In this document: piece after piece, positions 3,667 to 14,504 of the stretch
Numbering within the stretch: position 1 is the stretch's first letter
How the letters are laid out: every line of letters begins with the position of its first letter
From: Candidatus Zixiibacteriota bacterium
GTDB lineage: Bacteria > Zixibacteria > MSB-5A5 > GN15 > JAAZOE01
Direction: 5' to 3'
DNA: 64,000 nucleotides
NCBI GenBank assembly: GCA_041394985.1
Contig: JAWLBI010000001.1
Coordinates: forward strand, 4,292,855-4,356,854
Program-made: the position numbers and the translations under genes
The notes under the pieces: model-generated
What the model was told of the DNA's origin: nothing
The model's database searches: none
What the model saw: the letters and a program-made list of their open reading frames with translations, nothing else

Positions 3667-4455
3667 TTGTCGGCAATGAAGCTGACGACCGACAAAGCGG
3701 GCCTGTATCGGCATTTCCAAAAGAATCCTGTGCTCTATTCGTATCTCATCGGCGATCTGGATGATTTTTACTTTCCACTCTGCACCTGGCCGGTAATTGA
3801 GAATGAAGAGGGCGATATTGAAGACGCCGTTTTATTGTATAACAATCCGCGCTTCGTATGTGTGCAGGCGTTCGGCCAAACGGATCGATTCGAACAGCTT
3901 CTAACTGAAACTCTCCCCCATCTTCCGGATAGATTCTATTGTCATTATCTAAAACCATATCGAGACCTGTTCCGGCAATCATTCGAAGAGAAGCCACTCA
4001 GCACGCATATAAAAATGAAGCTGAAAAACTTTACGCCGCATCATAGCGAAGATGAAAACCTTCGACGATTGTCGATGGATGATTTCGATGCCATAATCGA
4101 TTTATACGAGGCAGCCTATCCTGACAGGTATTTCGACGAGCGCCTGCTTGCCACGGGAAAGTTTTTCGGTATTTCTGCGGGCCCGGCCATCATCGCTGTC
4201 GCCGGTGTACATGTCTATTCGAAGGAATACGATATTGCGGTCCTTGGAAGTATTGCGACGCATCCCGATTATCGCGGTCGCGGTCTGGCGACACGAGTGA
4301 CTTCGCGGTTGATTCAGGAATTGCAGCAATCGGTCGGGCTGATAGCGCTCAATGTCCAGCACCATAATGTCCCGGCAATCCGCTGTTATGAGAAATTGGG
4401 ATTTATTAAGCACTGTGAATATGAGGAGGCGCTGTTCGAGCGTCGGATACCATAA
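3667..4455 (+). CDS. GNAT family N-acetyltransferase
   Basis: C-terminal acetyl-CoA binding motif (R-G-R-G-L-A...CYEKLGF). 262 aa; the exact start is uncertain. Confidence 0.6.
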   Translation: MSAMKLTTDKAGLYRHFQKNPVLYSYLIGDLDDFYFPLCTWPVIENEEGDIEDAVLLYNNPRFVCVQAFGQTDRFEQLLTETLPHLPDRFYCHYLKPYRDLFRQSFEEKPLSTHIKMKLKNFTPHHSEDENLRRLSMDDFDAIIDLYEAAYPDRYFDERLLATGKFFGISAGPAIIAVAGVHVYSKEYDIAVLGSIATHPDYRGRGLATRVTSRLIQELQQSVGLIALNVQHHNVPAIRCYEKLGFIKHCEYEEALFERRIP

Positions 4456-4478: not shown

Positions 4479-4868
4479 ATGGCTGAAGGTACATTCGCCA
4501 CCGCGATTAATTGCATGGACGGCCGTGTCCAATTACCAATTATTGAGTGGATGAAAAATCGATTTCATGTCGACTACATCGACACCATTACTGAGCCGGG
4601 ACCGGATAAGATACTGGCGGAATGCCAGACCCCGCTCGTCGAATCCATTAAGAATCGTGTGAAAATTTCTGTAGAAAAGCACGGTTCGAAAGTTGTTGTC
4701 ATTACGGGCCACGCCGATTGCGCAGGAAATCCGGTTTCCAAAGAAAAACATATTGAACATGTGAAAAAGGCGATGAAGGAAATCGCCGGCTGGAAGCTGC
4801 CGGTTTCTATCTGCGGCGTCTGGATGGATACCGACTGGAAGCCGGAAATTATCGATATCATCGAATAG
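4479..4868 (+). CDS. small hypothetical protein with beta-carbonic-anhydrase-like Cys/His motifs (C-x-D-x-R ... H-x-D-C-x-G)
   Basis: 129 aa ORF with a good RBS (AAGGAG). Contains NCMDGR and ITGHADCAGN, which mimic the beta-CA zinc-ligand motifs. It is far shorter than canonical beta-CA (about 200 aa). Confidence 0.35.
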   Translation: MAEGTFATAINCMDGRVQLPIIEWMKNRFHVDYIDTITEPGPDKILAECQTPLVESIKNRVKISVEKHGSKVVVITGHADCAGNPVSKEKHIEHVKKAMKEIAGWKLPVSICGVWMDTDWKPEIIDIIE

Positions 4869-4870
4869 CG

Positions 4871-5734
4871 TCAGCGGACTTTGCAGACGACAACCCGATC
4901 GATATCGGCCAGGTCCTTTAACAGCGAACAGCGCACATAGCGGTCATCCGACTCGACGCGCTCGAATATCAAATCGGCCTGATCGTACCCGATCTCGAAT
5001 GCAAGGGTGCCGGATGGGTTCAGATAATCGGGCGCCTGTTTCAACAGCCGATCAATAATTTCCATCCCTTGTTTGCCGCCAAGCAGCGACAGTGTCGGGT
5101 CGGCCTTGACCTCGGGCGGCAGCGTATCGTAGTCATCGGAATTGATGTACGGCGGATTCGAGGCGATAATATCGAATGTCATACCAGCATCAATGTTTTC
5201 GAATAAATCAGACTCCACCCAGCGAATCTTTTCAAGAACACCAAACCGCCCGGCATTTTTCTGCGCCACGGCCAGGGCATCGGGCGAAATATCCGATGCC
5301 GTCACATCGAGGTCGGGGTTCTCCAATTTACTGGAAACCGAAACAACTCCCGAGCCGGTACCGATATCCAGCAGGCGCACCGGATTGGAGTTGCTAAGCC
5401 GAGCCGAGCGCAGAACGGATTCTAAAAGTAATTCCGTCTCCGGACACGGCACCATGACACTTTCATTGACAACGAATTTACGACCGTAGAAATAAGCCGA
5501 ACCGAGAATATATTGCAGCGGATATCGAGTGAGGCGTTTTTCGACAATCTGATTGAAGCGGTCGATAATCTCGGGCGTTATCATTGTGTGACCGTCGAGA
5601 TAGAGTTTCAGCCGCTCACAATCGAGCAGTTCGCACAGGATGATTTCGGCCTCTGCCTTACCGGCATCGATTCCTGCGGCGAGGAGCTTTTTCTCGGCCT
5701 CGGTGATGAGCTCATTGATGTTCGTATCCGGCAA
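4871..5734 (-). CDS. prmC: release factor glutamine N5-methyltransferase PrmC (HemK)
   Basis: NPPY motif (IIASNPPYI) and SAM-binding DIGTGSG. 287 aa. Lies at the downstream end of the prfA operon. Confidence 0.88.
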   Translation of the reverse strand: MPDTNINELITEAEKKLLAAGIDAGKAEAEIILCELLDCERLKLYLDGHTMITPEIIDRFNQIVEKRLTRYPLQYILGSAYFYGRKFVVNESVMVPCPETELLLESVLRSARLSNSNPVRLLDIGTGSGVVSVSSKLENPDLDVTASDISPDALAVAQKNAGRFGVLEKIRWVESDLFENIDAGMTFDIIASNPPYINSDDYDTLPPEVKADPTLSLLGGKQGMEIIDRLLKQAPDYLNPSGTLAFEIGYDQADLIFERVESDDRYVRCSLLKDLADIDRVVVCKVR

Positions 5735-5977
5735 TTAAAACTCCTCGGGAAGAACGGCGCCGCCTCCGGCCCAGATATCGGTTATTTCGGGTCGGAAGGC
5801 GCACCCGGATTTGGCATGGCCATGAAAGCGATACAGGGGCACTTCCTTGGGCATTCGATTATCAATCGGTTCGATTGCCAGAACACTGTCGACGCCAGTC
5901 AGGGTAATAGTCGCCCCAGCCGCCAGTATCGCGGATAATATCATAAATTCGCGGCGGTCTAACATGAGCCCTCCCAT
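5735..5977 (-). CDS. small ORF (80 aa) with a twin-arginine-type signal peptide; function unknown
   Basis: The translation carries DRREFMILSAILAAGATITL...VLA, a Tat-like S/T-R-R-x-F-L motif with an h-region and an AxA-like cleavage site. The ORF exactly fills the pmbA-prmC gap. Its stop abuts the prmC ATG and its start overlaps the pmbA 3' end. Confidence 0.4.
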   Translation of the reverse strand: MGGLMLDRREFMILSAILAAGATITLTGVDSVLAIEPIDNRMPKEVPLYRFHGHAKSGCAFRPEITDIWAGGGAVLPEEF

Positions 5978-7320
5978 TCTTCCTTCGTTTCCTGCACCAG
6001 GTTGAAATTGTTGATCTTCATCGCCGGAACATACATGAGCGACGCATACTGCGGATACACGATGCGATCTTTCGACATCATCTCGACATTGGAGAACGCC
6101 TCAAGGATTGACTGATTCGTGCGCATGTTTTTGATTGCCGGGCCGATTTGACCGTTTTCAATCAGGAAGGTGCCATCGAACGTCGTGCCGGTGATCATCG
6201 TGCGCATCGGATTGAGATAGTTGATGTACCAGAAATGCGAAATCAAAACGCCTTTTTCCGTCGATGCGATCATTTCATCGAATGTCTTGTCGCCGGGCTG
6301 CATGACGAGGTTTTTCGGATATGGTCCAAAACCGTTATTCGGCTGGACCGAATGGCCCGTCGGAGCCGTACCCATCATTGCGGCATAATAGCTGTCGAAG
6401 GCCCCCTCGCCTGCCTTACCATTCTGAATCGGAACGATACGTTTTTTGGAAACGCCTTCGTAGTCGAATAACAATGATCCGAAGATCGGGTTTTCCGCTT
6501 CGTCCGATATTGTGATGTTTTCGCCCGTGATAATTTCGCCGGTTTTGTTCGACAAGAATGACCGTTGCTGAGCCAGCGTGCGGCCGCCGAATCCGAGGAA
6601 ACTGAGAAACAGCAATAACTGTCCGACTGCCGCCGGTTCCAGAATCACGGTATACTGCCCGTCGGGCAGTACAATGGGATTGATATTTTTTTCTGCCTTC
6701 GAAATGGCGGCCTCGGCGGCTCGTTTGTAGTCGATGCTCGCAGGATCGGGACTGAATGCGATACCGAATCCGGATTGTTCACCCTCGCCGACTATTGTCA
6801 GTGATAATTCTGCCTTCCCATTTCGCCCGAACTGTTCGACACCGAGCGAGTTCGCTATCGCGACCGTATTGATATCATGCCGAAAGGCTCCGGATGCGGC
6901 CAGATTCTTCGCCTTGGTCATCTTCACCACAGCCTCAACCGTGCCCGCCATATCATTCGGGGTGAAATTGAGATTCGTCTCGACAGTCGCGGTTTTATCC
7001 AGCTTCGGAGCCATAGTCGTATCGGGAAATGACTGAAAGCGCGCATCGGGTTTTTGCAGTTTGCTGATTTGATTGGCCTTCGCCACCGCTTCCGCTATTC
7101 CGTCATCGGATAAATCGTTAGTTGTCGCAATACCGACCTTTTGTTCATTGACTGCCGTGATAACCAGTGTCGTTTCCTCTTGTGAGATATTCTGTGTAAT
7201 TGTCGATTCGGCGAAACGCGTCAGGTCGGTTTTCTCACCCATCAGTACGACTTCGGTCTGATCGGCGGATGATTGCTTTAGGGCCTTATGCAAAACTTCC
7301 ATTGCTTTCGATTCGGTCAT
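5959..7320 (-). CDS. pmbA: TldE/PmbA family metallopeptidase
   Basis: 453 aa. TldD/PmbA fold signatures (C-terminal GxC region). Start overlaps the tldD stop (TAATG). The TldD/TldE pairing is characteristic. Confidence 0.75.
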   Translation of the reverse strand: MTESKAMEVLHKALKQSSADQTEVVLMGEKTDLTRFAESTITQNISQEETTLVITAVNEQKVGIATTNDLSDDGIAEAVAKANQISKLQKPDARFQSFPDTTMAPKLDKTATVETNLNFTPNDMAGTVEAVVKMTKAKNLAASGAFRHDINTVAIANSLGVEQFGRNGKAELSLTIVGEGEQSGFGIAFSPDPASIDYKRAAEAAISKAEKNINPIVLPDGQYTVILEPAAVGQLLLFLSFLGFGGRTLAQQRSFLSNKTGEIITGENITISDEAENPIFGSLLFDYEGVSKKRIVPIQNGKAGEGAFDSYYAAMMGTAPTGHSVQPNNGFGPYPKNLVMQPGDKTFDEMIASTEKGVLISHFWYINYLNPMRTMITGTTFDGTFLIENGQIGPAIKNMRTNQSILEAFSNVEMMSKDRIVYPQYASLMYVPAMKINNFNLVQETKEEWEGSC

Positions 7321-8765
7321 TATGCCTGCCCTCCTACCTGAATATCGACGAAGCGGGTCGGCGATGCGCCTTCACCCGTCCGCGCATTCTGTCCCGGTTG
7401 CCCCTTGCCGCAGTTTGGTGTTCCCTGAATCACGAACTGCGAGGCATCACCGATGGCATTGCAATTGTTCCAGAACTGTGTCGTGCAGCCGGAAAAGGTC
7501 GGATTCTTGATGGCGCTGCCGATTTTGCCACCCTTGATTTCCCAGCCGATTTCGCATCCGAATTGGAAGTTTTTGCGCAGGTCATCGATCGACCAGGAAG
7601 TCGGACCGCTCATGAAGATGCCGTCGTCGACTTCGCCGATCAAATCGGCGAATGATTTATCTCCCGGTTGAAGTAGCGTATTCGACATGCGGATAATCGG
7701 GATGTTCTTCCACCCCTCGGCTCTCAGATTGGCCGTCGAGGTGCGGTTGACTCTCCCCGCCAGTTCGCGCGAGGACAAATAGTTTTTCAATCTGCCGTTT
7801 TCAATCAACAGTGTACAGCCTGCGGCGACGCCCTCGTCGTCCCAGCCATAGGAACCGAGCGCGTGCTTGGCGGTTGCATCCACCGCGAAATTGACGATGT
7901 CGGAGCCGTACTGCAGACTATCCAGATTCTCCGGTGTCGCGAAAGACATGCCGGAAAAGTTTCGCTCCATCCCGAAGACGCGGTCGAGTTCCAGCGCATG
8001 CCCGACGGATTCATGAATGACCAGCGAGGTAATATTGCCGTCGAGCACGAGTGTCGTCGTTTTGGCGGGACAGTCGATGGCTGTCTCCAGTTGCTTGATG
8101 TCCTCGACCAATCTGGGTATCTGCGCCTTGAAATCCAATTCTTTCAGTAGTTCATATCCCTTTAGTTCATATTGCCCGGCCGGTTTCGGATAGCTGCGCT
8201 CGTATCGCTCGCGTCGGGAAACCGATTTGCCCATGCTGATTCCTGCGCCGGATTGAATCAGGATTTGATGCAGTTCGCTGCCCTCGGATGAAAAGAAATA
8301 CTTGTCGTATTTACGAAACGATGCGAAACAGCTCCGGGAATTGATTCCCTCGTGTGCACCCATGGCCGCATCGAGGTCGGCGAGGAAGGCGATTTTGTCT
8401 TCCAGCGGTACGGTGAATGGATCTGTTTGATACGGCGAGATAAATTCGCCAACCTGTATCTGGGCCGGAGTCAGTTTTACGCGTTCTGCCATCACTTTTC
8501 CGGAGGCTTTGGCGACAGCCGCGGCCATATCGGTGAGAGCCTTGATCGACAGGGTGGGATCATCGGATGATGCGAATCCCCAGGCGCCGTCAATAAGCAA
8601 ACGGACGGCCCAGCCGGCCGAAACCGAAGTTTCAATAGGTTCCGGTTCGCCGTCGGAATAGGCCAGGTTTTCGTCGCGGATGACTTCATAGCGGATATCG
8701 CAATAGGACGCCTTGTGCGCCGATGCGGCCACGAGTCCATCCATGGCGATAGATTTAATATCCAT
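7320..8765 (-). CDS. tldD: TldD family metallopeptidase
   Basis: 481 aa with the HExxxH zinc motif (HESVGHALE) typical of TldD. Immediately upstream of pmbA. Confidence 0.8.
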   Translation of the reverse strand: MDIKSIAMDGLVAASAHKASYCDIRYEVIRDENLAYSDGEPEPIETSVSAGWAVRLLIDGAWGFASSDDPTLSIKALTDMAAAVAKASGKVMAERVKLTPAQIQVGEFISPYQTDPFTVPLEDKIAFLADLDAAMGAHEGINSRSCFASFRKYDKYFFSSEGSELHQILIQSGAGISMGKSVSRRERYERSYPKPAGQYELKGYELLKELDFKAQIPRLVEDIKQLETAIDCPAKTTTLVLDGNITSLVIHESVGHALELDRVFGMERNFSGMSFATPENLDSLQYGSDIVNFAVDATAKHALGSYGWDDEGVAAGCTLLIENGRLKNYLSSRELAGRVNRTSTANLRAEGWKNIPIIRMSNTLLQPGDKSFADLIGEVDDGIFMSGPTSWSIDDLRKNFQFGCEIGWEIKGGKIGSAIKNPTFSGCTTQFWNNCNAIGDASQFVIQGTPNCGKGQPGQNARTGEGASPTRFVDIQVGGQA

Positions 8766-8851
8766 ATTACCTCGCAGGCGATTGTTATGAACAATAATAC
8801 GATAATGTAGGTAATTTCATGGGAGGAGTCAAAAGCAAATACGCCGAGACT

Positions 8852-9316
8852 TCACTGTTCGATGCGACGGTCGAGCCAGATGACCTCGGTTTGCACGAAA
8901 TCATTGGCGTCGAAAAACTCCTGCGCGCCGATGTTTTTGCGATGCGTGATGCCGTAGATGGCGATATAGCCGTTTTCCTTCGCCCATTCGATCATATACG
9001 CCAGCATCGACCGGCCGATTCCTCGGTTGCGGCAATCGCTCTTGATGTGGATTTCATTGAGCCACAGATACCGTCCGCCGCTTTCCAGTCCAATAGCAGT
9101 ATTGAAAAAGCAAAAGCCGGTAACATCGCTGCACTCCTCATCGACCGAGGCTATGAAATGCGCGCGGGAGTCTTCTTCGAGGACGATATCAATCGTGTGT
9201 TCGACTCTGGATTTGGACGTTTCCGTCCCGAGGACATGCATGTGAGCGAGGACCAGCCGCACCAGCGCCGGTCGGTATGATTCAATATTGTCGCGAGTTA
9301 TTTCGACTATAGCCAT
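8852..9316 (-). CDS. GNAT family N-acetyltransferase
   Basis: 154 aa. Acetyl-CoA binding motif NRGIGRSML. Sits 8 bp downstream of prfA in the same orientation. Confidence 0.65.
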   Translation of the reverse strand: MAIVEITRDNIESYRPALVRLVLAHMHVLGTETSKSRVEHTIDIVLEEDSRAHFIASVDEECSDVTGFCFFNTAIGLESGGRYLWLNEIHIKSDCRNRGIGRSMLAYMIEWAKENGYIAIYGITHRKNIGAQEFFDANDFVQTEVIWLDRRIEQ

Positions 9317-9324
9317 GCCGCAAT

Positions 9325-10401
9325 TTACACATCTAATTCGGCCGCCGCAAGTAAATCTTCCTGTTCGCGATTGGTCAGGGCCTCGATCAATTCATCCAGA
9401 TCGCCGTTTAATATCGCCTGGAGCCTGTACAGAGTCAGGTTAATGCGATGATCCGTGACGCGCCCCTGTGGGAAATTATAGGTGCGAATTTTGGCCGACC
9501 TGTCCCCAGACCCGACCATGGATTTACGCTCGGCGGCGATTTTACTTTGTTGCTCCTGCATGGCTTTATCGAGCAGCCGTGCACGGAGCACTTTGAGCGC
9601 TTTGGTCTTGTTCTTTAACTGTGATTTTTCATCCTGACAGGTCACAACCAGCCCGGTCGGGAGGTGTGTGATACGCACGGCCGAATCGGTCGTGTTGACC
9701 GACTGACCGCCCGGGCCCGATGAACGGTAAACGTCGATTTTCAATTCGTTCTCATTGATGGCGATATCGACTTCCTCCGCTTCGGGCAGCACTGCCACCG
9801 ATGAGGCCGATGTATGAATGCGGCCGGAACTCTCCGTTTCCGGTACTCTCTGAACGCGGTGAACACCTGACTCGAATTTCAGGCGTGAATATGCCCCTGC
9901 CCCGACAATACTGAAGATAATTTCCTTGAGGCCGCCGATACCGGTTGGGTTGGTAGACAGTGTTTCGACTTTCCATCCCTGCTCCTCGGCAAAATGGCAG
10001 TACATACGATAGAGGTCGGCCGCGAAAAGCGCTGCCTCTTCGCCTCCCGTACCGGCGCGGATTTCCACGACAACGTCTTTATCGTCGTTCGGGTCGCGCG
10101 GGAGGAGCATGACGCGGAGACTGTTTTCTACATCGTCGATTGTTTCGTTCGCTTCATCCAGTTCGGCATGAGCCATTTCAACCAGATCGGGATCCTCGTT
10201 CAGACGAATGATTTCCTTCGCCTCATCGATATTCTTGAGAAGTTTGCGGTATTCGTCGGCGACCCGTTTCACTTCTTCCAAGTGCCTGTGCTCGCGCGAG
10301 AGCTGCTTGAGCTTATTGGGATTACTCAAATTCTCGGGAAGCGTCAGTTTCTCGGAGATGTCATTATAGCGGTCGTCTATTTTCGCCAGTAAATCAAGCA
10401 T
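9325..10401 (-). CDS. prfA: peptide chain release factor 1
   Basis: GGQ motif ([22 protein letters not shown]) and the RF1-type P-x-T tripeptide region ([10 protein letters not shown]). 358 aa. Confidence 0.9.
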
Positions 10402-10492
10402 AGGTTCCTCTCAGAATGAATCGGAATATAGCTGTCGCCGGTTCGGCAGGCAAGCATTTAAGAGCGACTTGAAATGTCGGAAGTGGAATTCG

Positions 10493-11479
10493 CTAAGTTG
10501 CGGGGACTCGTTTGACGGACAGTTTGGAATTCTCCGTAATATCCATCGCCGATTCCAGAGCCACAATGGCTACCTCGATCTGATCGAGGCTCGGCTCTTT
10601 GGTCGTAATGGTTTGCAGCCACAGTCCGGGGGCGATGAGCAACTGGGTAATTTTTGAATCACGGGTCCGCCCCGAGAGTTTCAAGAGCTCATATGAGCCG
10701 CCGGCGACGAGCGGGAGAAGCGAGAAATGAATACCGAAGCGAACCAGAAGTGTCGGGGCCTCGCCGGTCACGATTGCAAAAATCGTATCTGAAATGGAAT
10801 AGATGAGAATCGCGAACAAGGCGACGATTAATATAAAACTGGTTCCGCAGCGAGGATGGCGGCGCGGATAATTCGACACTTCTTCGGGGACCATTCTGGC
10901 CCCGGATTCGAAGGCAAAAATCGATTTATGCTCGGCGCCGTGATAGGCGAAGACGCGCTTGAAATCGCCGATAAAGGAAATGCCCCAGACATAGGCGAGG
11001 AATAACACGACGCGAATAACCCCGGCAACGAGGTTGAAAGCGAGGGCATCCTTGTTGATATTCAGAAACGTGGAAATGGCAAGGGGCAGGAAAAAGAATA
11101 CGGTGATACCGAGGGCCAGGGCAAAAACGACCGTCCCGGCCAGCATGACCGAATTAGTTTTCTTCTTCTCTTTTTCCTTGTATACTTCGCCGTTCTTTGC
11201 GGCTTCTTCCTTCTCGATTTCAACGACCGCGATATCGGCGGAGAAATTGAGAGATTTGATGCCGATGACCAGCATCTCCAGGAAAGAAACGGCCCCCCGG
11301 ATTACCGGCAGGCCGAGAACTTTATATTTCTTGGTTAACGAGATAAACTCGTCGGTTTTCACTTTTATTTCGCCGGATGGGACTCTGACGGCTGTTGCGA
11401 TACGATCGTCCGACCGCATCATCACGCCCTCAATCACTGCTTGTCCGCCCACTGCCAGATCGGGCATGGTGTCTCCCAC
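10493..11479 (-). CDS. DUF1385 (YqhQ-like) membrane protein
   Basis: 328 aa. HGAEHK motif plus C-terminal TM helices. It occupies the position this family usually holds, between rpmE and prfA. Confidence 0.55.
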   Translation of the reverse strand: MGDTMPDLAVGGQAVIEGVMMRSDDRIATAVRVPSGEIKVKTDEFISLTKKYKVLGLPVIRGAVSFLEMLVIGIKSLNFSADIAVVEIEKEEAAKNGEVYKEKEKKKTNSVMLAGTVVFALALGITVFFFLPLAISTFLNINKDALAFNLVAGVIRVVLFLAYVWGISFIGDFKRVFAYHGAEHKSIFAFESGARMVPEEVSNYPRRHPRCGTSFILIVALFAILIYSISDTIFAIVTGEAPTLLVRFGIHFSLLPLVAGGSYELLKLSGRTRDSKITQLLIAPGLWLQTITTKEPSLDQIEVAIVALESAMDITENSKLSVKRVPAT

Positions 11480-11560
11480 GCATCTTGTTAATGAACGTTT
11501 ACCTTAACATACTACATTTACTAATAGTACGAAAGGACGGCGGCGAATGGTGAGAAGAAA

Positions 11561-11773
11561 CTATTTCTTTTTCTTATCGAGATTGTATTTCTGGCGGAAC
11601 CGTTCGACGCGACCAGCGGTGTCGACCAGTTTCTGCTTACCGGTGAAGAACGGATGGCAGTTCGCGCAGATTTCAACCTTGATGTCTTTCGATGTCGAGC
11701 GAGTTTCGATGACACTTCCACAGGCGCAGGTTATCGTCGTCGGCTCGTATTTCGGATGAATCTTTTCTTTCAT
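11561..11773 (-). CDS. rpmE: 50S ribosomal protein L31
   Basis: MKEKIHPKY...C-x-C...C-x-x-C-H zinc-ribbon L31 signature. The true start is the internal Met of the 106-aa ORF (ATG at 11771-11773 on the minus strand), giving 70 aa. Confidence 0.88.
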
Positions 11774-12023: not shown

Positions 12024-12392
12024 ATGTCTATGCTGACGAATTCATCCCGGTATTTTCGACGAATCAGAAACTGGTGCCTGAAACAGGAAATGGTAACGGA
12101 GGAGTATCCCTGGGAGTGTATCGTCTATAAAGTCAATGGCAAGGTGTTCGCCATTTGCAGTTCCGAGACACCGCTTGGAATCACCCTCAAACCGGAAAAG
12201 GAGCATCTGGACGGATATCTCTATCATCCCGACGTCGACATCGCCAGTCATGTCGGACGGTTCGGGTGGATTACCGTCACGGTGCATGATAAGGCGTCGG
12301 CCGATTTGGCATTTGCATTGATACAGGAGAGTTATGCCGTCGTCGTAAAAAAACACTTCAGAAAACTGTATCGAAAGCTCTTTGCCGAGTAG
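12024..12392 (+). CDS. MmcQ/YjbR family DNA-binding protein
   Basis: 122 aa. The pattern of conserved hydrophobic and aromatic residues (KVFA...LK...W..V) matches the YjbR family. Confidence 0.45.
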   Translation: MSMLTNSSRYFRRIRNWCLKQEMVTEEYPWECIVYKVNGKVFAICSSETPLGITLKPEKEHLDGYLYHPDVDIASHVGRFGWITVTVHDKASADLAFALIQESYAVVVKKHFRKLYRKLFAE

Positions 12393-12589
12393 AATAATGC
12401 TATCGGTACATCGCGAATGTAATAATCGCTTGCAAGATTTTCTATCCTCGTCTATATTATGATAATTACAGGAAGAGGTTCCCCTGTAATCCCTCACCTC
12501 GCACAGGTGTATTGATTTTCGCATCGCCGCAATCATGCAGTTCGTTATTTCACATTATCCTTGCAAGCGCATGTTTTAGGAGGGGAGCT

Positions 12590-13369
12590 ATGTCTCACAA
12601 GCTTATCGTATTTCTCGTGGTAACGTTGTTATTAGTCGCTTTCGCCGGAGATATTTCGGCCAAGGCTCTCGCCCGCTGGGTCGGTCCGATCGCCTATACG
12701 GGGGCTCACACTCGTGTCATCGGTGTAAAGTTCTGCGACGATGAGGAAATTTACCCGTTCACGACATCGAATCTCCCGATTCAGGCCTACTGTGAAAGTA
12801 TACGACCGGATTGGAAACAAGGCGGAGCCGTGGCGTATGCGTATTGTGATACGACCGCGACCGGGCGCAAAATTCAATGGGCATTCGCGCATTCCTGGGG
12901 CGTACTGGCCTGGGCAGGCAAATCGGCCGGCGATACGACGCGCTGTAGTACTCAGGTGATCTCATCAATCGACGCGGGACATCTTAGTATGGATGTTTAC
13001 GGTTCATTGTCATCGGTTGATCAGAAGCAAGGGGCTATTTTGCGACTCGATGTCACAGCCGGCGCGGATACTATTTTCAGCGGCCGAGCGGAATTGCGCG
13101 GCGCACCTGACGAATTGACCGCAAGTGGCGATTTCACCGTAGGCGATTTTTCCGTTGTCGGAAACGCGGTTGAAATGGAGCGAACATTTGCGGGCATTGA
13201 CGTATCCGCTTACAACCCGGATGATATTCAAATAGAGATAACCTCGGATGCGCAATCGTATATGCGGGTTCCTTCGACGACACCGTATGGGTTACTCATT
13301 CTCATCGGCCTGCTTGCCCTCACGGCGGCCTTCCTGGTGTTGAGGAGGTATCGCATCGCACGAATATAA
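12590..13369 (+). CDS. secreted 4-Cys protein with C-terminal TM anchor and RRYRIA tail (paralog A)
   Basis: The likely true start is the internal ATG at 12590, preceded by AGGAGG. Signal peptide, four conserved Cys, and C-terminal VPSTTPYG, then a hydrophobic helix, then RRYRIARI. It is a paralog of 13731..14504. Confidence 0.6.
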   Translation: MSHKLIVFLVVTLLLVAFAGDISAKALARWVGPIAYTGAHTRVIGVKFCDDEEIYPFTTSNLPIQAYCESIRPDWKQGGAVAYAYCDTTATGRKIQWAFAHSWGVLAWAGKSAGDTTRCSTQVISSIDAGHLSMDVYGSLSSVDQKQGAILRLDVTAGADTIFSGRAELRGAPDELTASGDFTVGDFSVVGNAVEMERTFAGIDVSAYNPDDIQIEITSDAQSYMRVPSTTPYGLLILIGLLALTAAFLVLRRYRIARI

Positions 13370-13730: not shown

Positions 13731-14504
13731 ATGTTTAAGAAGTTCTCAGCAATTTTATTCTGTTGCTTTTTACTATTCGTCATTGCAGGCAATATACAGG
13801 CCGGTGCCAAAGCCACATGGATCGGCCCAAACGCGGATGTTGAAGTTGACGCATCGGCATTAGGACAGAAGTTATGTGTCGATGCGGATTCCTATCCCGA
13901 TCCCAATCCGGGTTTACCGATTACCGCCGAATGTGAAGTGAATCGCCCGGCGCCTCAATTCGGTGGGGCGCTATCATTTGCCCGTTGTAATGAAACGTCT
14001 CCCCGAAAACAATTATTTGCCGTTGCGAAGGCATGGGGATTTCGCACTTCAGCCGACAAGTCTTTAACCGACACAACCAGTTGTAGCACATATGTGTCAT
14101 ATGAGATAATCGGTGGAATACTTAACATGGATGTAGTCGGTTATTTGTATTCAATAGACCCGCAACAAACTGCCATCATTCGACTAACAGTTTCATCCCA
14201 GGGAAATTCCATATTTAATGGATTGGCAACGCTAAGGGGTTCTACTGATAATTTGACTACGAATGGGGATTTTACAAATGCACACTTTATTCTGATAGCC
14301 GACTCGGCCCTGATCGGTGTTCCCTTTAATGGAATAGACGTATCCGCATATAACGTGGAGACGATTAAGGTGGAATTGACCGTAAATGCCCACTCCTACA
14401 TCAAAACTCCATCATCATCCTATTACGGGAAAATCGCGCTAATACTTTTAATGGCGCTCACGGCAGTTTTTTTAGTTTTCCGAAAATACAGGATAGCTGC
14501 TTGA
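13731..14504 (+). CDS. secreted 4-Cys protein with C-terminal TM anchor and RKYRIAA tail (paralog B)
   Basis: RBS GAGGAGG. Signal peptide ending IQAGAKA. Cys positions aligned with paralog A. C-terminal TPSSSYYG, then TM helix, then RKYRIAA. Confidence 0.6.
   Translation: MFKKFSAILFCCFLLFVIAGNIQAGAKATWIGPNADVEVDASALGQKLCVDADSYPDPNPGLPITAECEVNRPAPQFGGALSFARCNETSPRKQLFAVAKAWGFRTSADKSLTDTTSCSTYVSYEIIGGILNMDVVGYLYSIDPQQTAIIRLTVSSQGNSIFNGLATLRGSTDNLTTNGDFTNAHFILIADSALIGVPFNGIDVSAYNVETIKVELTVNAHSYIKTPSSSYYGKIALILLMALTAVFLVFRKYRIAA

What the first reader, a model, noticed from the sequence alone, without database searches (positions are those of the whole stretch)
4871..11773. Conserved rpmE-DUF1385-prfA-prmC translation-termination operon is split by a GNAT-TldD-PmbA-small-ORF insertion
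rpmE, the DUF1385 protein, prfA and prmC normally sit adjacent as a compact operon. Here about 3.6 kb sits between prfA and prmC, all co-oriented with short gaps or overlaps. It encodes a GNAT acetyltransferase, TldD, PmbA/TldE and an 80-aa ORF. TldD/TldE is a peptide-processing protease pair (microcin B17 and CcdA processing). Co-transcribing it with a release factor and its methyltransferase, together with an acetyltransferase, suggests a peptide-modification or quality-control module coupled to translation termination. This is not a described arrangement.
Basis: partly seen in the sequence, partly recalled or inferred. Interest (0 to 1): 0.6.

Follow-up and report, generated by a model that had tools for sequence, protein, structure and literature searches.

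The report
Zixibacterial TldD-PmbA-miniprotein-PrmC operon after prfA
The split of the release-factor operon is real, but it is an old gene order shared across Zixibacteria: a protease pair, a new 76-residue export-signal protein and the release-factor methyltransferase form a fixed four-gene unit with its own promoter, and nothing yet shows that it acts on translation termination.

Summary
Observation confirmed. On the minus strand lie rpmE, DUF1385, prfA, a GNAT, a TldD-like protease (HESVGH motif intact), a PmbA/TldE-like partner without that motif, a small ORF and prmC.

The window is from a Candidatus Zixiibacteriota genome. This is not a one-off insertion. In all 20 distinct related loci that hold the small ORF, prmC follows it directly. 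PmbA directly precedes it in 18 of the 19 loci where the upstream side can be read. TldD identity across these loci runs from 50 to 100%.

prfA lies upstream in only 10 of 14 loci with enough flank. The GNAT occurs only in the window's nearest relatives, plus a 32%-identical copy in L001. The prfA-TldD gap carries changing cargo.

A TTGAC-N18-TAnATT promoter-like element is conserved upstream of TldD in 9 loci.

The small ORF is a real gene (dN/dS 0.16-0.48) and a new family restricted to this lineage. It has a canonical twin-arginine (Tat) signal, RRxF[LI]K, and an invariant HGHxRSGCAxRPE core.

My best reading is an ancient insertion of a TldD/PmbA/Tat-miniprotein module into prfA-prmC. prmC stays attached because its start abuts or overlaps the miniprotein's stop codon. 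A functional link to termination is unsupported. I found no publication describing the arrangement.

The parts
11561..11773 (-). rpmE (ribosomal protein L31, 70 aa)
   Evidence: PF01197 at 112.8 bits and NF000612 at 112.3 bits.
10493..11479 (-). DUF1385 membrane protein (328 aa)
   Evidence: PF07136 at 258 bits. It is 79-91% identical in the Zixibacteria loci L001-L003, L081 and L103.
9325..10401 (-). prfA (peptide chain release factor 1, 358 aa)
   Evidence: TIGR00019 at 527.9 bits (cut-off 423.25). PCRF and RF-1 domains are present, and the GGQ motif is in the sequence.
8852..9316 (-). Small GNAT acetyltransferase (154 aa). This is lineage-specific cargo, not part of the conserved core.
   Evidence: PF00583 at 43 bits. 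It falls below every NCBIfam cut-off, including rimI (21.1 against 86.4). The best PDB hit has E=5e-4. It is present at this position only in the window and L103-105 (84% identical), with a 32%-identical copy in L001.
8804..8832 (-). Conserved sigma-70-like promoter element (TTGACT, 17 nt, TACATT) about 40 nt upstream of the TldD start
   Evidence: Flagged by the promoter scan. The TTTGAC and T..TA..TT columns are invariant in 9 loci whose intergenic sequence is otherwise unconserved, whatever gene lies upstream. The pattern has 2 matches in the 64-kb window against 0.23 expected. Its function is predicted, not shown.
7320..8765 (-). TldD-like catalytic subunit of an M103 metalloprotease (481 aa)
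   Evidence: The three PmbA_TldD Pfam domains are present. HESVGH and NCGKGQ align to HEAVGH and VCGKEGQ of E. coli TldD (5NJ5_A, E=1.2e-22). It scores below the NCBIfam TldD equivalog cut-offs.
5959..7320 (-). PmbA/TldE-like non-catalytic partner (453 aa)
   Evidence: The three PmbA_TldD Pfam domains are present. LEPAAVGQ stands in place of HExxxH. The best PDB hit is 6J6A at E=2e-26. Its start shares one base with the TldD stop (TAATG).
5735..5965 (-). Tat-signal miniprotein (76 aa): MLxRRxF[LI]K signal, variable linker, invariant HGHx(R/K)SGCAxRPE core
   Evidence: Homologues: 113 clusters at 90% identity and 41 clusters at 50% identity among 1.84 billion representatives, all 57-78 aa (the one longer hit, P0255, 1087 aa, is a spurious repeat-protein match). 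Every named source is Zixibacteria. dN/dS is 0.16-0.48. The RR motif is present in 34 of 35 sequences. The profile hits Tat signal peptides of the hydrogenase small subunit, NapA and PhsA in the PDB. AF2 finds only the N-terminal helix, residues 4-28.
4871..5734 (-). prmC (release-factor N5-glutamine methyltransferase, 287 aa)
   Evidence: TIGR03534 at 249.3 bits (cut-off 199.1). The PrmC_N domain and the NPPY motif are present. Its TTG start directly follows the miniprotein's TAA, with a GAGGAG Shine-Dalgarno sequence inside the miniprotein's last codons. It sits immediately downstream of the miniprotein in 20 of 20 loci.

Best explanation
The region is a lineage-wide Zixibacteria gene order made of two adjoining units.

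Unit 1 is the widespread rpmE-DUF1385-prfA group.

Unit 2 is a four-gene cassette: TldD, PmbA, Tat-miniprotein, PrmC. It has its own conserved sigma-70-like promoter, and the start of each gene abuts or overlaps the stop of the gene before it.

The cassette most likely arose when a TldD/PmbA/miniprotein module was inserted between prfA and prmC in an early Zixibacteria ancestor. The canonical prfA-prmC adjacency survives in other phyla and in one deep Zixibacteria bin.

Since then prmC has had no intergenic space or promoter of its own. It can only travel with the cassette, which explains why prmC linkage is absolute while prfA linkage is often lost. The space between prfA and the TldD promoter behaves as an operon boundary that collects changing cargo; in this genome that cargo is the GNAT.

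Within the cassette, TldD (active HExxxH plus Cys) and PmbA (inactive) form a TldD/E-type heterodimeric peptidase. The 76-residue protein is its dedicated third component, made in step with PmbA. My preferred role for it (inference) is a Tat-signal escort. It would bind the folded heterodimer through its unstructured HGHxRSGCAxRPE segment and carry it across the membrane by the hitchhiker route, possibly keeping the zinc site blocked through its invariant cysteine.

Shown: gene identities, conservation of order, purifying selection, the Tat motif and the promoter motif. Inferred: transcription units, the insertion history, binding of the miniprotein to TldD/PmbA, and export.
For: Order and conservation:
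- TldD-PmbA-miniprotein-prmC is found in the window, L001, L081, L083, L085, L086, L088, L090-L095, L097, L098 and L100-L103, at 50-100% TldD identity.
- L099 keeps miniprotein-prmC even though an outer-membrane beta-barrel gene has entered between PmbA and the miniprotein.
- prfA is upstream in 10 of 14 loci with enough flank. It is absent upstream in L086/87, L093, L100 and L101, and L003 has prfA with no block within 8.5 kb.

Polarity:
- 19 of 77 other DUF1385 genomes, including the Zixibacteria bin L068, have prfA-prmC adjacent. None of the 77 has TldD nearby.

Promoter:
- The TTGAC-N18-TAnATT columns are invariant in 9 loci.

Cargo in the prfA-TldD gap:
- GNAT; Mrr-like protein with GNAT, PEBP lipoprotein and PspC; GIY-YIG protein; an unknown multi-pass membrane protein. 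Much of this is envelope-related.

Coupling:
- TAATG, ATGTTAG and TAA-TTG junctions in the window, and 0-4 nt overlaps in relatives.

Miniprotein:
- dN/dS is 0.16-0.48.
- RRxF[LI]K is present in 34 of 35 sequences.
- PF10518 and 'twin-arginine translocation signal' labels appear in source records.
- PDB profile hits are Tat signal peptides of known Tat substrates.
- The mature part has no independent fold in AF2.
- The family is always stand-alone and lineage-restricted.

TldD catalytic residues are retained and the PmbA ones lost. There is precedent for one signal-bearing subunit carrying two others through Tat: PaoABC (PMC4273604).
Against: - No transcript data exist. No terminator-like structure lies between GNAT and TldD, so read-through from prfA is possible and the 'two units' view is a prediction.
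- Nothing directly shows that the miniprotein binds TldD/PmbA.
- In L099 the miniprotein stays with prmC rather than with PmbA. That fits less well with a strict PmbA partnership.
- TldD/E proteases studied so far are cytoplasmic, and none is known to be exported.
- The cleavage site after the signal is not uniformly AxA in the more distant subgroup.
- Absolute retention of prmC over such divergence could also reflect selection for a functional tie that these data cannot see.
Confidence: 0.55

Rival explanations
1. RiPP-like pathway. The miniprotein is a precursor peptide. It is modified in the cytoplasm, for example at its invariant Cys by the radical SAM/SPASM enzyme encoded after prmC in some relatives. 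TldD/PmbA then trims it by the 'pencil-sharpener' mechanism, and the product leaves the cell through Tat.
For: - TldD/E-type proteases process RiPP precursors, and some are encoded inside RiPP clusters (PMC10885120, PMC12707348).
- A radical SAM/SPASM gene directly follows prmC in L001, L081, L085 and L093.
- The mature part of the miniprotein is unstructured, as a peptide substrate would be.
- Its core has invariant Cys, Pro, Glu and Gly.
Against: - The radical SAM gene is absent from the whole 64-kb window and from L083, L086 and L097-L102. In the latter group an ATC_hydrolase gene follows prmC instead.
- The gene is the third in a translationally coupled chain, not a separately and highly expressed precursor.
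- TldD/E threads peptides from the N-terminus, which would destroy the Tat signal.
- To my knowledge no RiPP uses a Tat leader (not searched for here).
- The radical SAM protein matches no peptide-maturase equivalog above cut-off.
Confidence: 0.2
2. The protease pair, with the GNAT, is functionally coupled to translation termination. Possible forms: a quality-control or modification module acting on RF1 or RF2, on PrmC, or on products of failed termination; or PrmC methylating a glutamine in the invariant TldD loop CGKGQPGQN.
For: - prmC linkage to the cassette is absolute in 20 of 20 loci, across 50% TldD divergence, and outlasts the prfA linkage.
- The miniprotein's stop and the prmC start abut or overlap everywhere.
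- TldD carries an invariant Gly/Gln-rich loop (A3 invariant columns).
- No published explanation exists.
Against: - The GNAT is not conserved and is not RimI-like.
- The miniprotein has no invariant Gln. Its GGGA(Q/V/H/G) tail varies and is lost in the distant subgroup.
- The miniprotein's stop codons are a TAA/TGA mixture, so there is no RF1-specific feedback.
- The CGKxGQ loop is a general TldD-family metal-site motif, also present in E. coli.
- PrmC here is an ordinary PrmC with the release-factor-binding N-domain.
- In the distant subgroup the operon runs on into unrelated housekeeping genes (ATC_hydrolase, HhH-GPD glycosylase), which shows that operons in these genomes mix functions.
- Overlapping genes make neutral retention sufficient.
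Confidence: 0.12
3. The miniprotein has nothing to do with TldD/PmbA. It is an independent small periplasmic His/Cys metal-binding peptide, or mainly a translated upstream ORF whose translation delivers ribosomes to prmC.
For: - In L099 it stays directly upstream of prmC and overlaps it, while separated from PmbA by another gene.
- The prmC Shine-Dalgarno sequence lies in its last codons.
- His and Cys are enriched in the conserved core.
Against: - It directly follows PmbA, overlapping its 3' end, in 18 of 19 loci.
- The family exists only where this TldD/PmbA subfamily exists.
- Purifying selection covers the whole core, not just the 3' Shine-Dalgarno region. A mere delivery ORF would not need a Tat signal.
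Confidence: 0.1
4. A recent horizontal insertion or an assembly artefact peculiar to this genome.
For: The cargo in the prfA-TldD gap does change between genomes and includes mobile-type genes (Mrr-like, GIY-YIG).
Against: - GC content is flat across the region, 0.50-0.56.
- The same order occurs in more than 20 independent assemblies from NCBI, ENA, JGI and Logan, at 50-100% identity.
Confidence: 0.02

Closest known systems
E. coli TldD/TldE (PmbA) heterodimeric metalloprotease, MEROPS M103 (PDB 5NJ5)
   Same: - Two adjacent paralogous genes.
- TldD keeps HExxxH and the CGK cysteine, and the partner has lost them.
- Same three Pfam domains.
   Different: - The phmmer alignment to 5NJ5_A covers only the C-terminal ~290 residues (188-480, E=1.2e-22).
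- Far below the NCBIfam equivalog cut-offs: 87.6 against 513 for TldD and 44.2 against 438 for PmbA.
- Accompanied by a dedicated Tat-signal miniprotein and fused into one operon with prmC.
- In E. coli tldD and pmbA are not adjacent to each other, nor to prfA or prmC (background knowledge).
Canonical rpmE-DUF1385-prfA-prmC (or prfA-prmC) operon
   Same: Same four genes in the same order and orientation. 19 of 77 sampled genomes show DUF1385-prfA-prmC adjacent.
   Different: Here 3.6 kb (four genes) separates prfA from prmC. prmC is coupled to the miniprotein rather than to prfA, and a conserved promoter precedes TldD.
Tat hitchhiker complexes ([NiFe] hydrogenase small/large subunits, DmsAB, ternary PaoABC)
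   Same: Only one component carries an RRxFLK signal, while its operon partners have none. The miniprotein profile matches hydrogenase small-subunit, NapA and PhsA signal peptides. PaoABC shows that one signal can carry two partners (PMC4273604).
   Different: - The signal-bearing component is only about 45 residues once mature, and has no fold of its own.
- The passengers would be a protease, not a redox enzyme.
- Export is untested.
- The mature part has no similarity to any solved structure.
RiPP clusters that encode TldD/E-type proteases (pearlin/ammosamide clusters, biphenomycin BipI)
   Same: A small peptide gene lies next to TldD-family protease genes. A radical SAM/SPASM gene is nearby in some relatives.
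   Different: - No modifying enzyme is conserved with the cassette, and there is none in this window.
- The peptide carries a Tat signal rather than a leader.
- The cassette sits among housekeeping translation genes and is phylum-wide rather than sporadic.

Membership tests
TldD (M103 catalytic subunit) | PmbA_TldD domains 1-3 | tested here: met
   PF01523 52.6 bits, PF19290 24 bits, PF19289 135.8 bits, all above cut-off.
TldD (M103 catalytic subunit) | HExxxH zinc motif plus the C-terminal CGK cysteine ligand | tested here: met
   HESVGH aligns to HEAVGH and NCGKGQ to VCGKEGQ of 5NJ5_A. Both are invariant in 9 orthologues.
TldD (M103 catalytic subunit) | NCBIfam equivalog score (bacterial PRK10735 or archaeal NF040952) | tested here: not met
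   87.6 bits against a cut-off of 513; 148.6 bits against 635. It is a divergent subfamily, not the E. coli or archaeal orthologue group.
PmbA/TldE (non-catalytic partner) | Same fold as TldD, HExxxH lost, encoded next to TldD | tested here: met
   All three Pfam domains are present. LEPAAVGQ replaces HExxxH. The gene shares TAATG with TldD. The NCBIfam PRK11040 score, 44.2 against 438, is not met.
TldD/E heterodimer | Physical heterodimer with proteolytic activity | not testable with these tools
PrmC (RF N5-glutamine methyltransferase) | TIGR03534 equivalog score, PrmC_N domain and NPPY catalytic motif | tested here: met
   249.3 bits against a cut-off of 199.1; PF17827 at 71.7 bits; SNPPYI in the sequence.
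PrmC (RF N5-glutamine methyltransferase) | Only prmC copy in the genome, and methylates RF1/RF2 | not tested
   There is no second copy in the 64-kb window.
RF1 (prfA) | TIGR00019 equivalog score and GGQ motif | tested here: met
   527.9 bits against a cut-off of 423.25; GPGGQS in the sequence.
Tat signal peptide | (S/T)RRxFLK motif near the N-terminus, followed by a moderately hydrophobic stretch | tested here: met
   RRxF[LI](K/Q/R) is present in 34 of 35 family members. There are PF10518 hits on several members. The profile matches the NapA, PhsA and hydrogenase signal peptides.
Tat signal peptide | Actual Tat-dependent export and signal cleavage | not testable with these tools
   An AxA-like site (VLA|I) is present in the window protein. 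It is less clear in the distant subgroup.
RimI/RimJ-type protein N-acetyltransferase (for the GNAT) | NCBIfam TIGR01575 (rimI) score | tested here: not met
   21.1 bits against a cut-off of 86.4. The best NCBIfam hit, AAC(6') group E, scores 26.9 against 140. The best PDB hit is a thialysine acetyltransferase at E=5e-4. It is a generic GNAT.
RiPP biosynthetic cluster | Precursor peptide gene together with a conserved modifying enzyme | tested here: not met
   The radical SAM/SPASM gene is present in 4 relatives only. It is absent from the window and from most loci.

The most novel reading that the evidence does not exclude
The 76-residue protein is the native, co-evolved partner of a TldD/E protease. 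It would be a Tat 'escort' that docks its unstructured HGHxRSGCAxRPE segment in the protease channel, with the invariant Cys capping the zinc like a cysteine switch. It would carry the latent heterodimer into the periplasm. That would be the first exported TldD/E and the first dedicated ligand known for this widespread protease of unknown physiological role. A bolder add-on: PrmC is retained because it also acts on the cassette, for example by methylating a glutamine in the invariant TldD GQPGQN loop.
Probability: 0.15. Interest if true: 0.7.

Novelty: new variant of a known kind. Interest (0 to 1): 0.42.

Why it matters
- TldD/E is reported in roughly 60% of bacterial genomes (PMC10885120), yet its normal cellular substrates and role are still unclear beyond microcin B17 and CcdA processing.
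- A lineage in which the protease pair is always accompanied by one small, strongly conserved, Tat-tagged protein offers a concrete candidate partner or substrate. It can be tested with three recombinant proteins.
- The case also shows how an important gene (prmC) can be captured by an inserted module and then travel with it. This warns against reading function from operon membership alone.
- The miniprotein is a new, lineage-restricted family that most annotations leave as 'hypothetical' or do not name.

Tried and rejected
1. Fused TldD-linker-PmbA-linker-miniprotein AF2 model with a paired 9-row alignment.
2. Descent of the miniprotein from a [NiFe]-hydrogenase small-subunit N-terminus. The full profile hit 2WPN_A at E=0.03, but the mature part alone hits nothing. 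The similarity is only the Tat signal.
3. P0255, a 1087-aa protein with 8 matches to the profile. It is a repetitive adhesin-like protein matching the Gly-rich tail, so it is spurious.
4. L095 as a 'distant' cassette. It is a frameshift-ridden contig of an ordinary relative.
5. GGQ mimicry by the miniprotein's GGGA(Q) tail. The Gln is not conserved, and the tail is lost in the distant subgroup.
6. RF1-specific autoregulation through the miniprotein's stop codon. The stops are a TAA/TGA mixture.
7. RNA elements in the gaps. Rfam finds nothing credible.
8. The GNAT as RimI/RimJ. The cut-off is not met.
9. Literature link. No paper holds TldD with PrmC, and no paper ties TldD to Tat export.
10. 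A radical SAM partner elsewhere in the window. tblastn finds none in 64 kb.

Full report
**1. What is in the window**

ORF listing and family scans confirm eight co-oriented minus-strand genes:

| Gene | Coordinates | Evidence |
|---|---|---|
| rpmE | 11773-11561 | PF01197 |
| DUF1385 | 11479-10493 | PF07136 |
| prfA | 10401-9325 | TIGR00019, 527.9 bits, above cut-off |
| GNAT (154 aa) | 9316-8852 | PF00583 |
| TldD-like (481 aa) | 8765-7320 | three PmbA_TldD domains |
| PmbA-like (453 aa) | 7320-5959 | three PmbA_TldD domains |
| small ORF | 5965-5735 | see section 4 |
| prmC | 5734-4871 | TIGR03534, 249.3 bits, cut-off 199.1; PrmC_N domain; NPPY |

- The sequence shows an 8-nt prfA-GNAT gap and an 86-nt GNAT-TldD gap.
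- TldD and PmbA share a TAATG overlap.
- The small ORF starts (ATGTTAG) over the PmbA stop, behind a GGGAGGG Shine-Dalgarno sequence.
- The prmC TTG start directly follows the small ORF's TAA, with GAGGAG six bases upstream.
- GC content is even across the region.
- No terminator-like hairpin lies in any minus-strand gap, and Rfam finds nothing.
The one amendment is that the small ORF most likely starts at 5965 (76 aa), because every homologue begins ML(x)RR.

**2. Whose genome, and is the arrangement special?**

- The small ORF and TldD have exact matches on a 4.46-Mb contig labelled Candidatus Zixiibacteriota.
- I used the DUF1385 protein as an unbiased probe of species-representative genomes and fetched 80 loci.
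- Of the 77 loci outside the window's clade, 19 have DUF1385-prfA-prmC adjacent and 27 have DUF1385-prmC adjacent. None has a TldD or PmbA gene in the flank.
- One deep Zixibacteria bin (L068, DUF1385 38% identical) still has prfA-prmC adjacent. This gives the likely ancestral state.

**3. The split is lineage-wide, and the fixed unit is TldD-PmbA-miniprotein-prmC**

I collected contexts in three ways:
- from the small ORF's homologues;
- from a metagenome scan with its alignment;
- from TldD homologues of decreasing identity.

A uniform tblastn map shows:
- All 20 distinct loci that contain the small ORF have prmC immediately downstream, with a 0-4 nt overlap or gap in most.
- 18 of the 19 loci readable upstream have PmbA immediately upstream, preceded by TldD wherever the contig reaches that far.
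- The exception, L099, has an outer-membrane beta-barrel gene between PmbA and a distant Tat-signal mini-ORF (MRRRQFLE...) that still overlaps prmC.
- TldD identity across these loci runs from 100% down to 50%.

prfA linkage is weaker:
- prfA lies upstream in the window, L001, L002, L081, L096, L097, L098 (six genes away), L099, L102 and L103-105.
- It is not upstream in L086/87, L093, L100 or L101.
- In L003 prfA is followed by unrelated genes.

The prfA-TldD gap carries changing cargo:

| Loci | Cargo between prfA and TldD |
|---|---|
| window, L103-105 | GNAT (84% identical) |
| L001 | Mrr-like protein, a 32%-identical GNAT, a PEBP lipoprotein and PspC |
| L002, L086, L093 | PEBP and PspC |
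| L096 | a GIY-YIG protein and PspC |
| L097, L099, L102 | an unknown multi-pass membrane protein |
| L081 | nothing |

The GNAT is therefore genus-level cargo. It also fails RimI membership (21.1 bits against a cut-off of 86.4) and has no close characterised relative.

**4. A conserved promoter in front of TldD**

- I aligned the ~90 nt upstream of TldD from nine loci.
- Only TTTGAC and, 17-18 nt further on, T..TA..TT are invariant. The rest of the spacer is unconserved, and the upstream gene differs among GNAT, prfA and PspC.
- The window copy is TTGACT-17-TACATT at 8832-8804.
- The pattern occurs twice in 64 kb against 0.23 expected.
- This is strong comparative evidence for a sigma-70-type promoter serving TldD-PmbA-miniprotein-prmC.
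- Read-through from prfA cannot be excluded, because no terminator is predicted.

**5. The small ORF is a real, new, lineage-restricted Tat-signal protein**

- Pairwise dN/dS is 0.16-0.48, with synonymous sites near saturation.
- The word-indexed search found 113 clusters.
- An exhaustive profile search of 1.84 billion representatives found only 41 clusters. All are 57-78 aa and stand-alone, apart from one spurious repeat protein.
- Every named source is Zixibacteria.
- The N-terminus is the textbook Tat motif RRxF[LI]K in 34 of 35 members.
- Some members carry PF10518 hits or NCBI 'twin-arginine translocation signal' labels.
- The family profile's only PDB matches are signal peptides of known Tat substrates: the [NiFeSe] hydrogenase small subunit, NapA (including the NapD-bound peptide 2PQ4_B) and PhsA.
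- The mature part alone matches nothing.
- Its core, (H)G(H)x(R/K)(S/C)GCAx(R/P)PE, has invariant Gly, Cys, Ala and Pro, with Glu nearly invariant.
- AF2 with the family alignment gives a confident helix only for residues 4-28. The rest has no regular structure, with pLDDT 60-72. This is what one expects of a segment that folds only on a partner.

**6. The protease pair**

- TldD aligns to E. coli TldD (5NJ5_A, E=1.2e-22) with HESVGH on HEAVGH and NCGKGQ on VCGKEGQ.
- PmbA has LEPAAVGQ in place of the zinc motif, and its best structural relative is 6J6A.
- Both fall far below the NCBIfam equivalog cut-offs.
- This is a divergent TldD/E-type heterodimer in which only TldD is catalytic. Neither protein has a signal peptide of its own.

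**7. How it most likely works**

Shown:
- A four-gene cassette with a conserved promoter motif and abutting or overlapping reading frames.
- A Tat-tagged miniprotein under purifying selection.
- An active/inactive protease pair.
- An ordinary PrmC.

Inferred, part 1: history.
- A TldD/PmbA/miniprotein module entered the ancestral prfA-prmC operon.
- Since then prmC has had no intergenic space or promoter of its own, so any rearrangement that separated it would break a gene.
- This explains why prmC linkage is absolute, while the promoter-bearing boundary between prfA and TldD accepts cargo and breaks repeatedly.
- It needs no functional tie to termination.
- In support, in the more distant subgroup the same operon continues into unrelated genes (ATC_hydrolase, an HhH-GPD glycosylase).

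Inferred, part 2: the miniprotein's role.
- It is the dedicated third component of the protease.
- I favour a Tat escort, or hitchhiker, role (precedent for a ternary case: PaoABC, PMC4273604).
- The reasons are that it is made in step with PmbA, is unstructured alone, and is the only member with a signal. The variable neighbours are largely envelope proteins (PspC, a PEBP lipoprotein, a membrane protein, an outer-membrane barrel).
- The invariant Cys could cap the TldD zinc as a latency switch. That part is speculation.

Main rival.
- The chief alternative is a RiPP-like reading: precursor, TldD/E trimming, and the radical SAM/SPASM enzyme that follows prmC in L001, L081, L085 and L093.
- TldD/E proteases inside RiPP clusters are documented (PMC10885120, PMC12707348).
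- Against it, the radical SAM gene is not conserved with the cassette and is absent from this window. N-terminal threading by TldD/E would also destroy the Tat signal.

**8.

- A termination-coupled quality-control or modification module is not excluded, but nothing specific supports it.
- The GNAT is not conserved.
- The miniprotein has no conserved Gln or GGQ-like site.
- Its stop codons are mixed TAA/TGA.
- The Gly/Gln loop in TldD is a general family feature.

**9. Novelty and verdict**

- No paper in the searched library mentions TldD together with PrmC, or TldD with Tat export.
- The parts are known families, apart from the miniprotein. The combination is new: a TldD/E pair with a dedicated Tat miniprotein, permanently joined to prmC and usually sitting behind prfA across a candidate phylum.
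- I rate it a new variant of a known kind, of moderate interest.
- Its value lies in offering a concrete candidate partner for a protease whose physiological role is still open.
- It does not lie in a demonstrated link to translation termination.

Noticed in passing
L001:12913-13941; L081:11101-12078; L085:2760-3737; L093:10814-11809: A radical SAM/SPASM protein (325-342 aa; no NCBIfam equivalog reached) directly follows prmC in four relatives. It is missing from the window, where prmC ends 2 bp from the convergent Pro_CA_2 gene. It may modify the Cys-containing miniprotein, or it may be unrelated cargo.
   Followed up: partly
window 4479-4868 (+) and 3667-4455 (+): A Pro_CA_2 'putative carbonic anhydrase' (PF20393, 178 bits) converges on prmC with a 2-bp gap. 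It is preceded by a 262-aa GNAT_acetyltran/FR47-type acetyltransferase. This pair keeps its place next to prmC in L001 (Pro_CA_2 only), L081, L086 (Pro_CA_2 only) and L103-105.
   Followed up: no
window 12512-13369 (+) and 13731-14504 (+): Two paralogous secreted proteins (285 and 257 aa). Both have a signal-like N-terminus and a shared C-terminal tail: P(S/T)(T/S)xYG, then a hydrophobic stretch, then RRYRIA / RKYRIA. This resembles a PEP-CTERM-type sorting signal.
   Followed up: no
L097:7054-8019; L099:7199-7999; L102:5189-6145; L098:7065-7871 (minus): An uncharacterised multi-pass membrane protein family (266-321 aa; no Pfam hit above cut-off) sits between prfA and TldD, abutting or overlapping the TldD start, in the more distant Zixibacteria subgroup. 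In L098 it is divergently placed. It may be a further component of the cassette in those lineages.
   Followed up: partly
L001:6085-7350; L096:6479-7309 (minus): Mobile-type genes occupy the prfA-TldD gap in some relatives: an Mrr_cat-like restriction endonuclease (weak hit) and a GIY-YIG protein (weak hit). This marks the site as an insertion hot spot.
   Followed up: partly
L097:11886-12344; L100:10204-10656; L101:10081-10542; L102:10033-10491: In the distant subgroup prmC overlaps a downstream ATC_hydrolase (PF14196) gene, which is followed by an HhH-GPD glycosylase. The operon therefore runs on into unrelated housekeeping genes.
   Followed up: no
window 5959-5985 (PmbA C-terminus) and relatives: The PmbA C-terminal residues EEWEG(S/K)C are conserved across the window's clade. 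Their codons (TGG GAG GGC) form the miniprotein's Shine-Dalgarno sequence. Likewise the miniprotein's C-terminal PE(E/D) codons form the prmC Shine-Dalgarno sequence. Both are examples of dual coding constraint.
   Followed up: partly
L100:6783-7647; L101:6952-7655; L095 whole: TldD is called as a truncated 233-287 aa product in two 'complete' Zixibacteria genomes (CP070766.1, CP070796.1), and L095 is riddled with frameshifts. These are probably sequencing or assembly errors rather than pseudogenes.
   Followed up: no
window 12024-12392 (+): A 122-aa ORF lies divergent from rpmE. Relatives carry a YjbR-family (PF04237) gene at the same place (L081, L103). Synteny on this side of the operon is therefore also conserved.
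   Followed up: no
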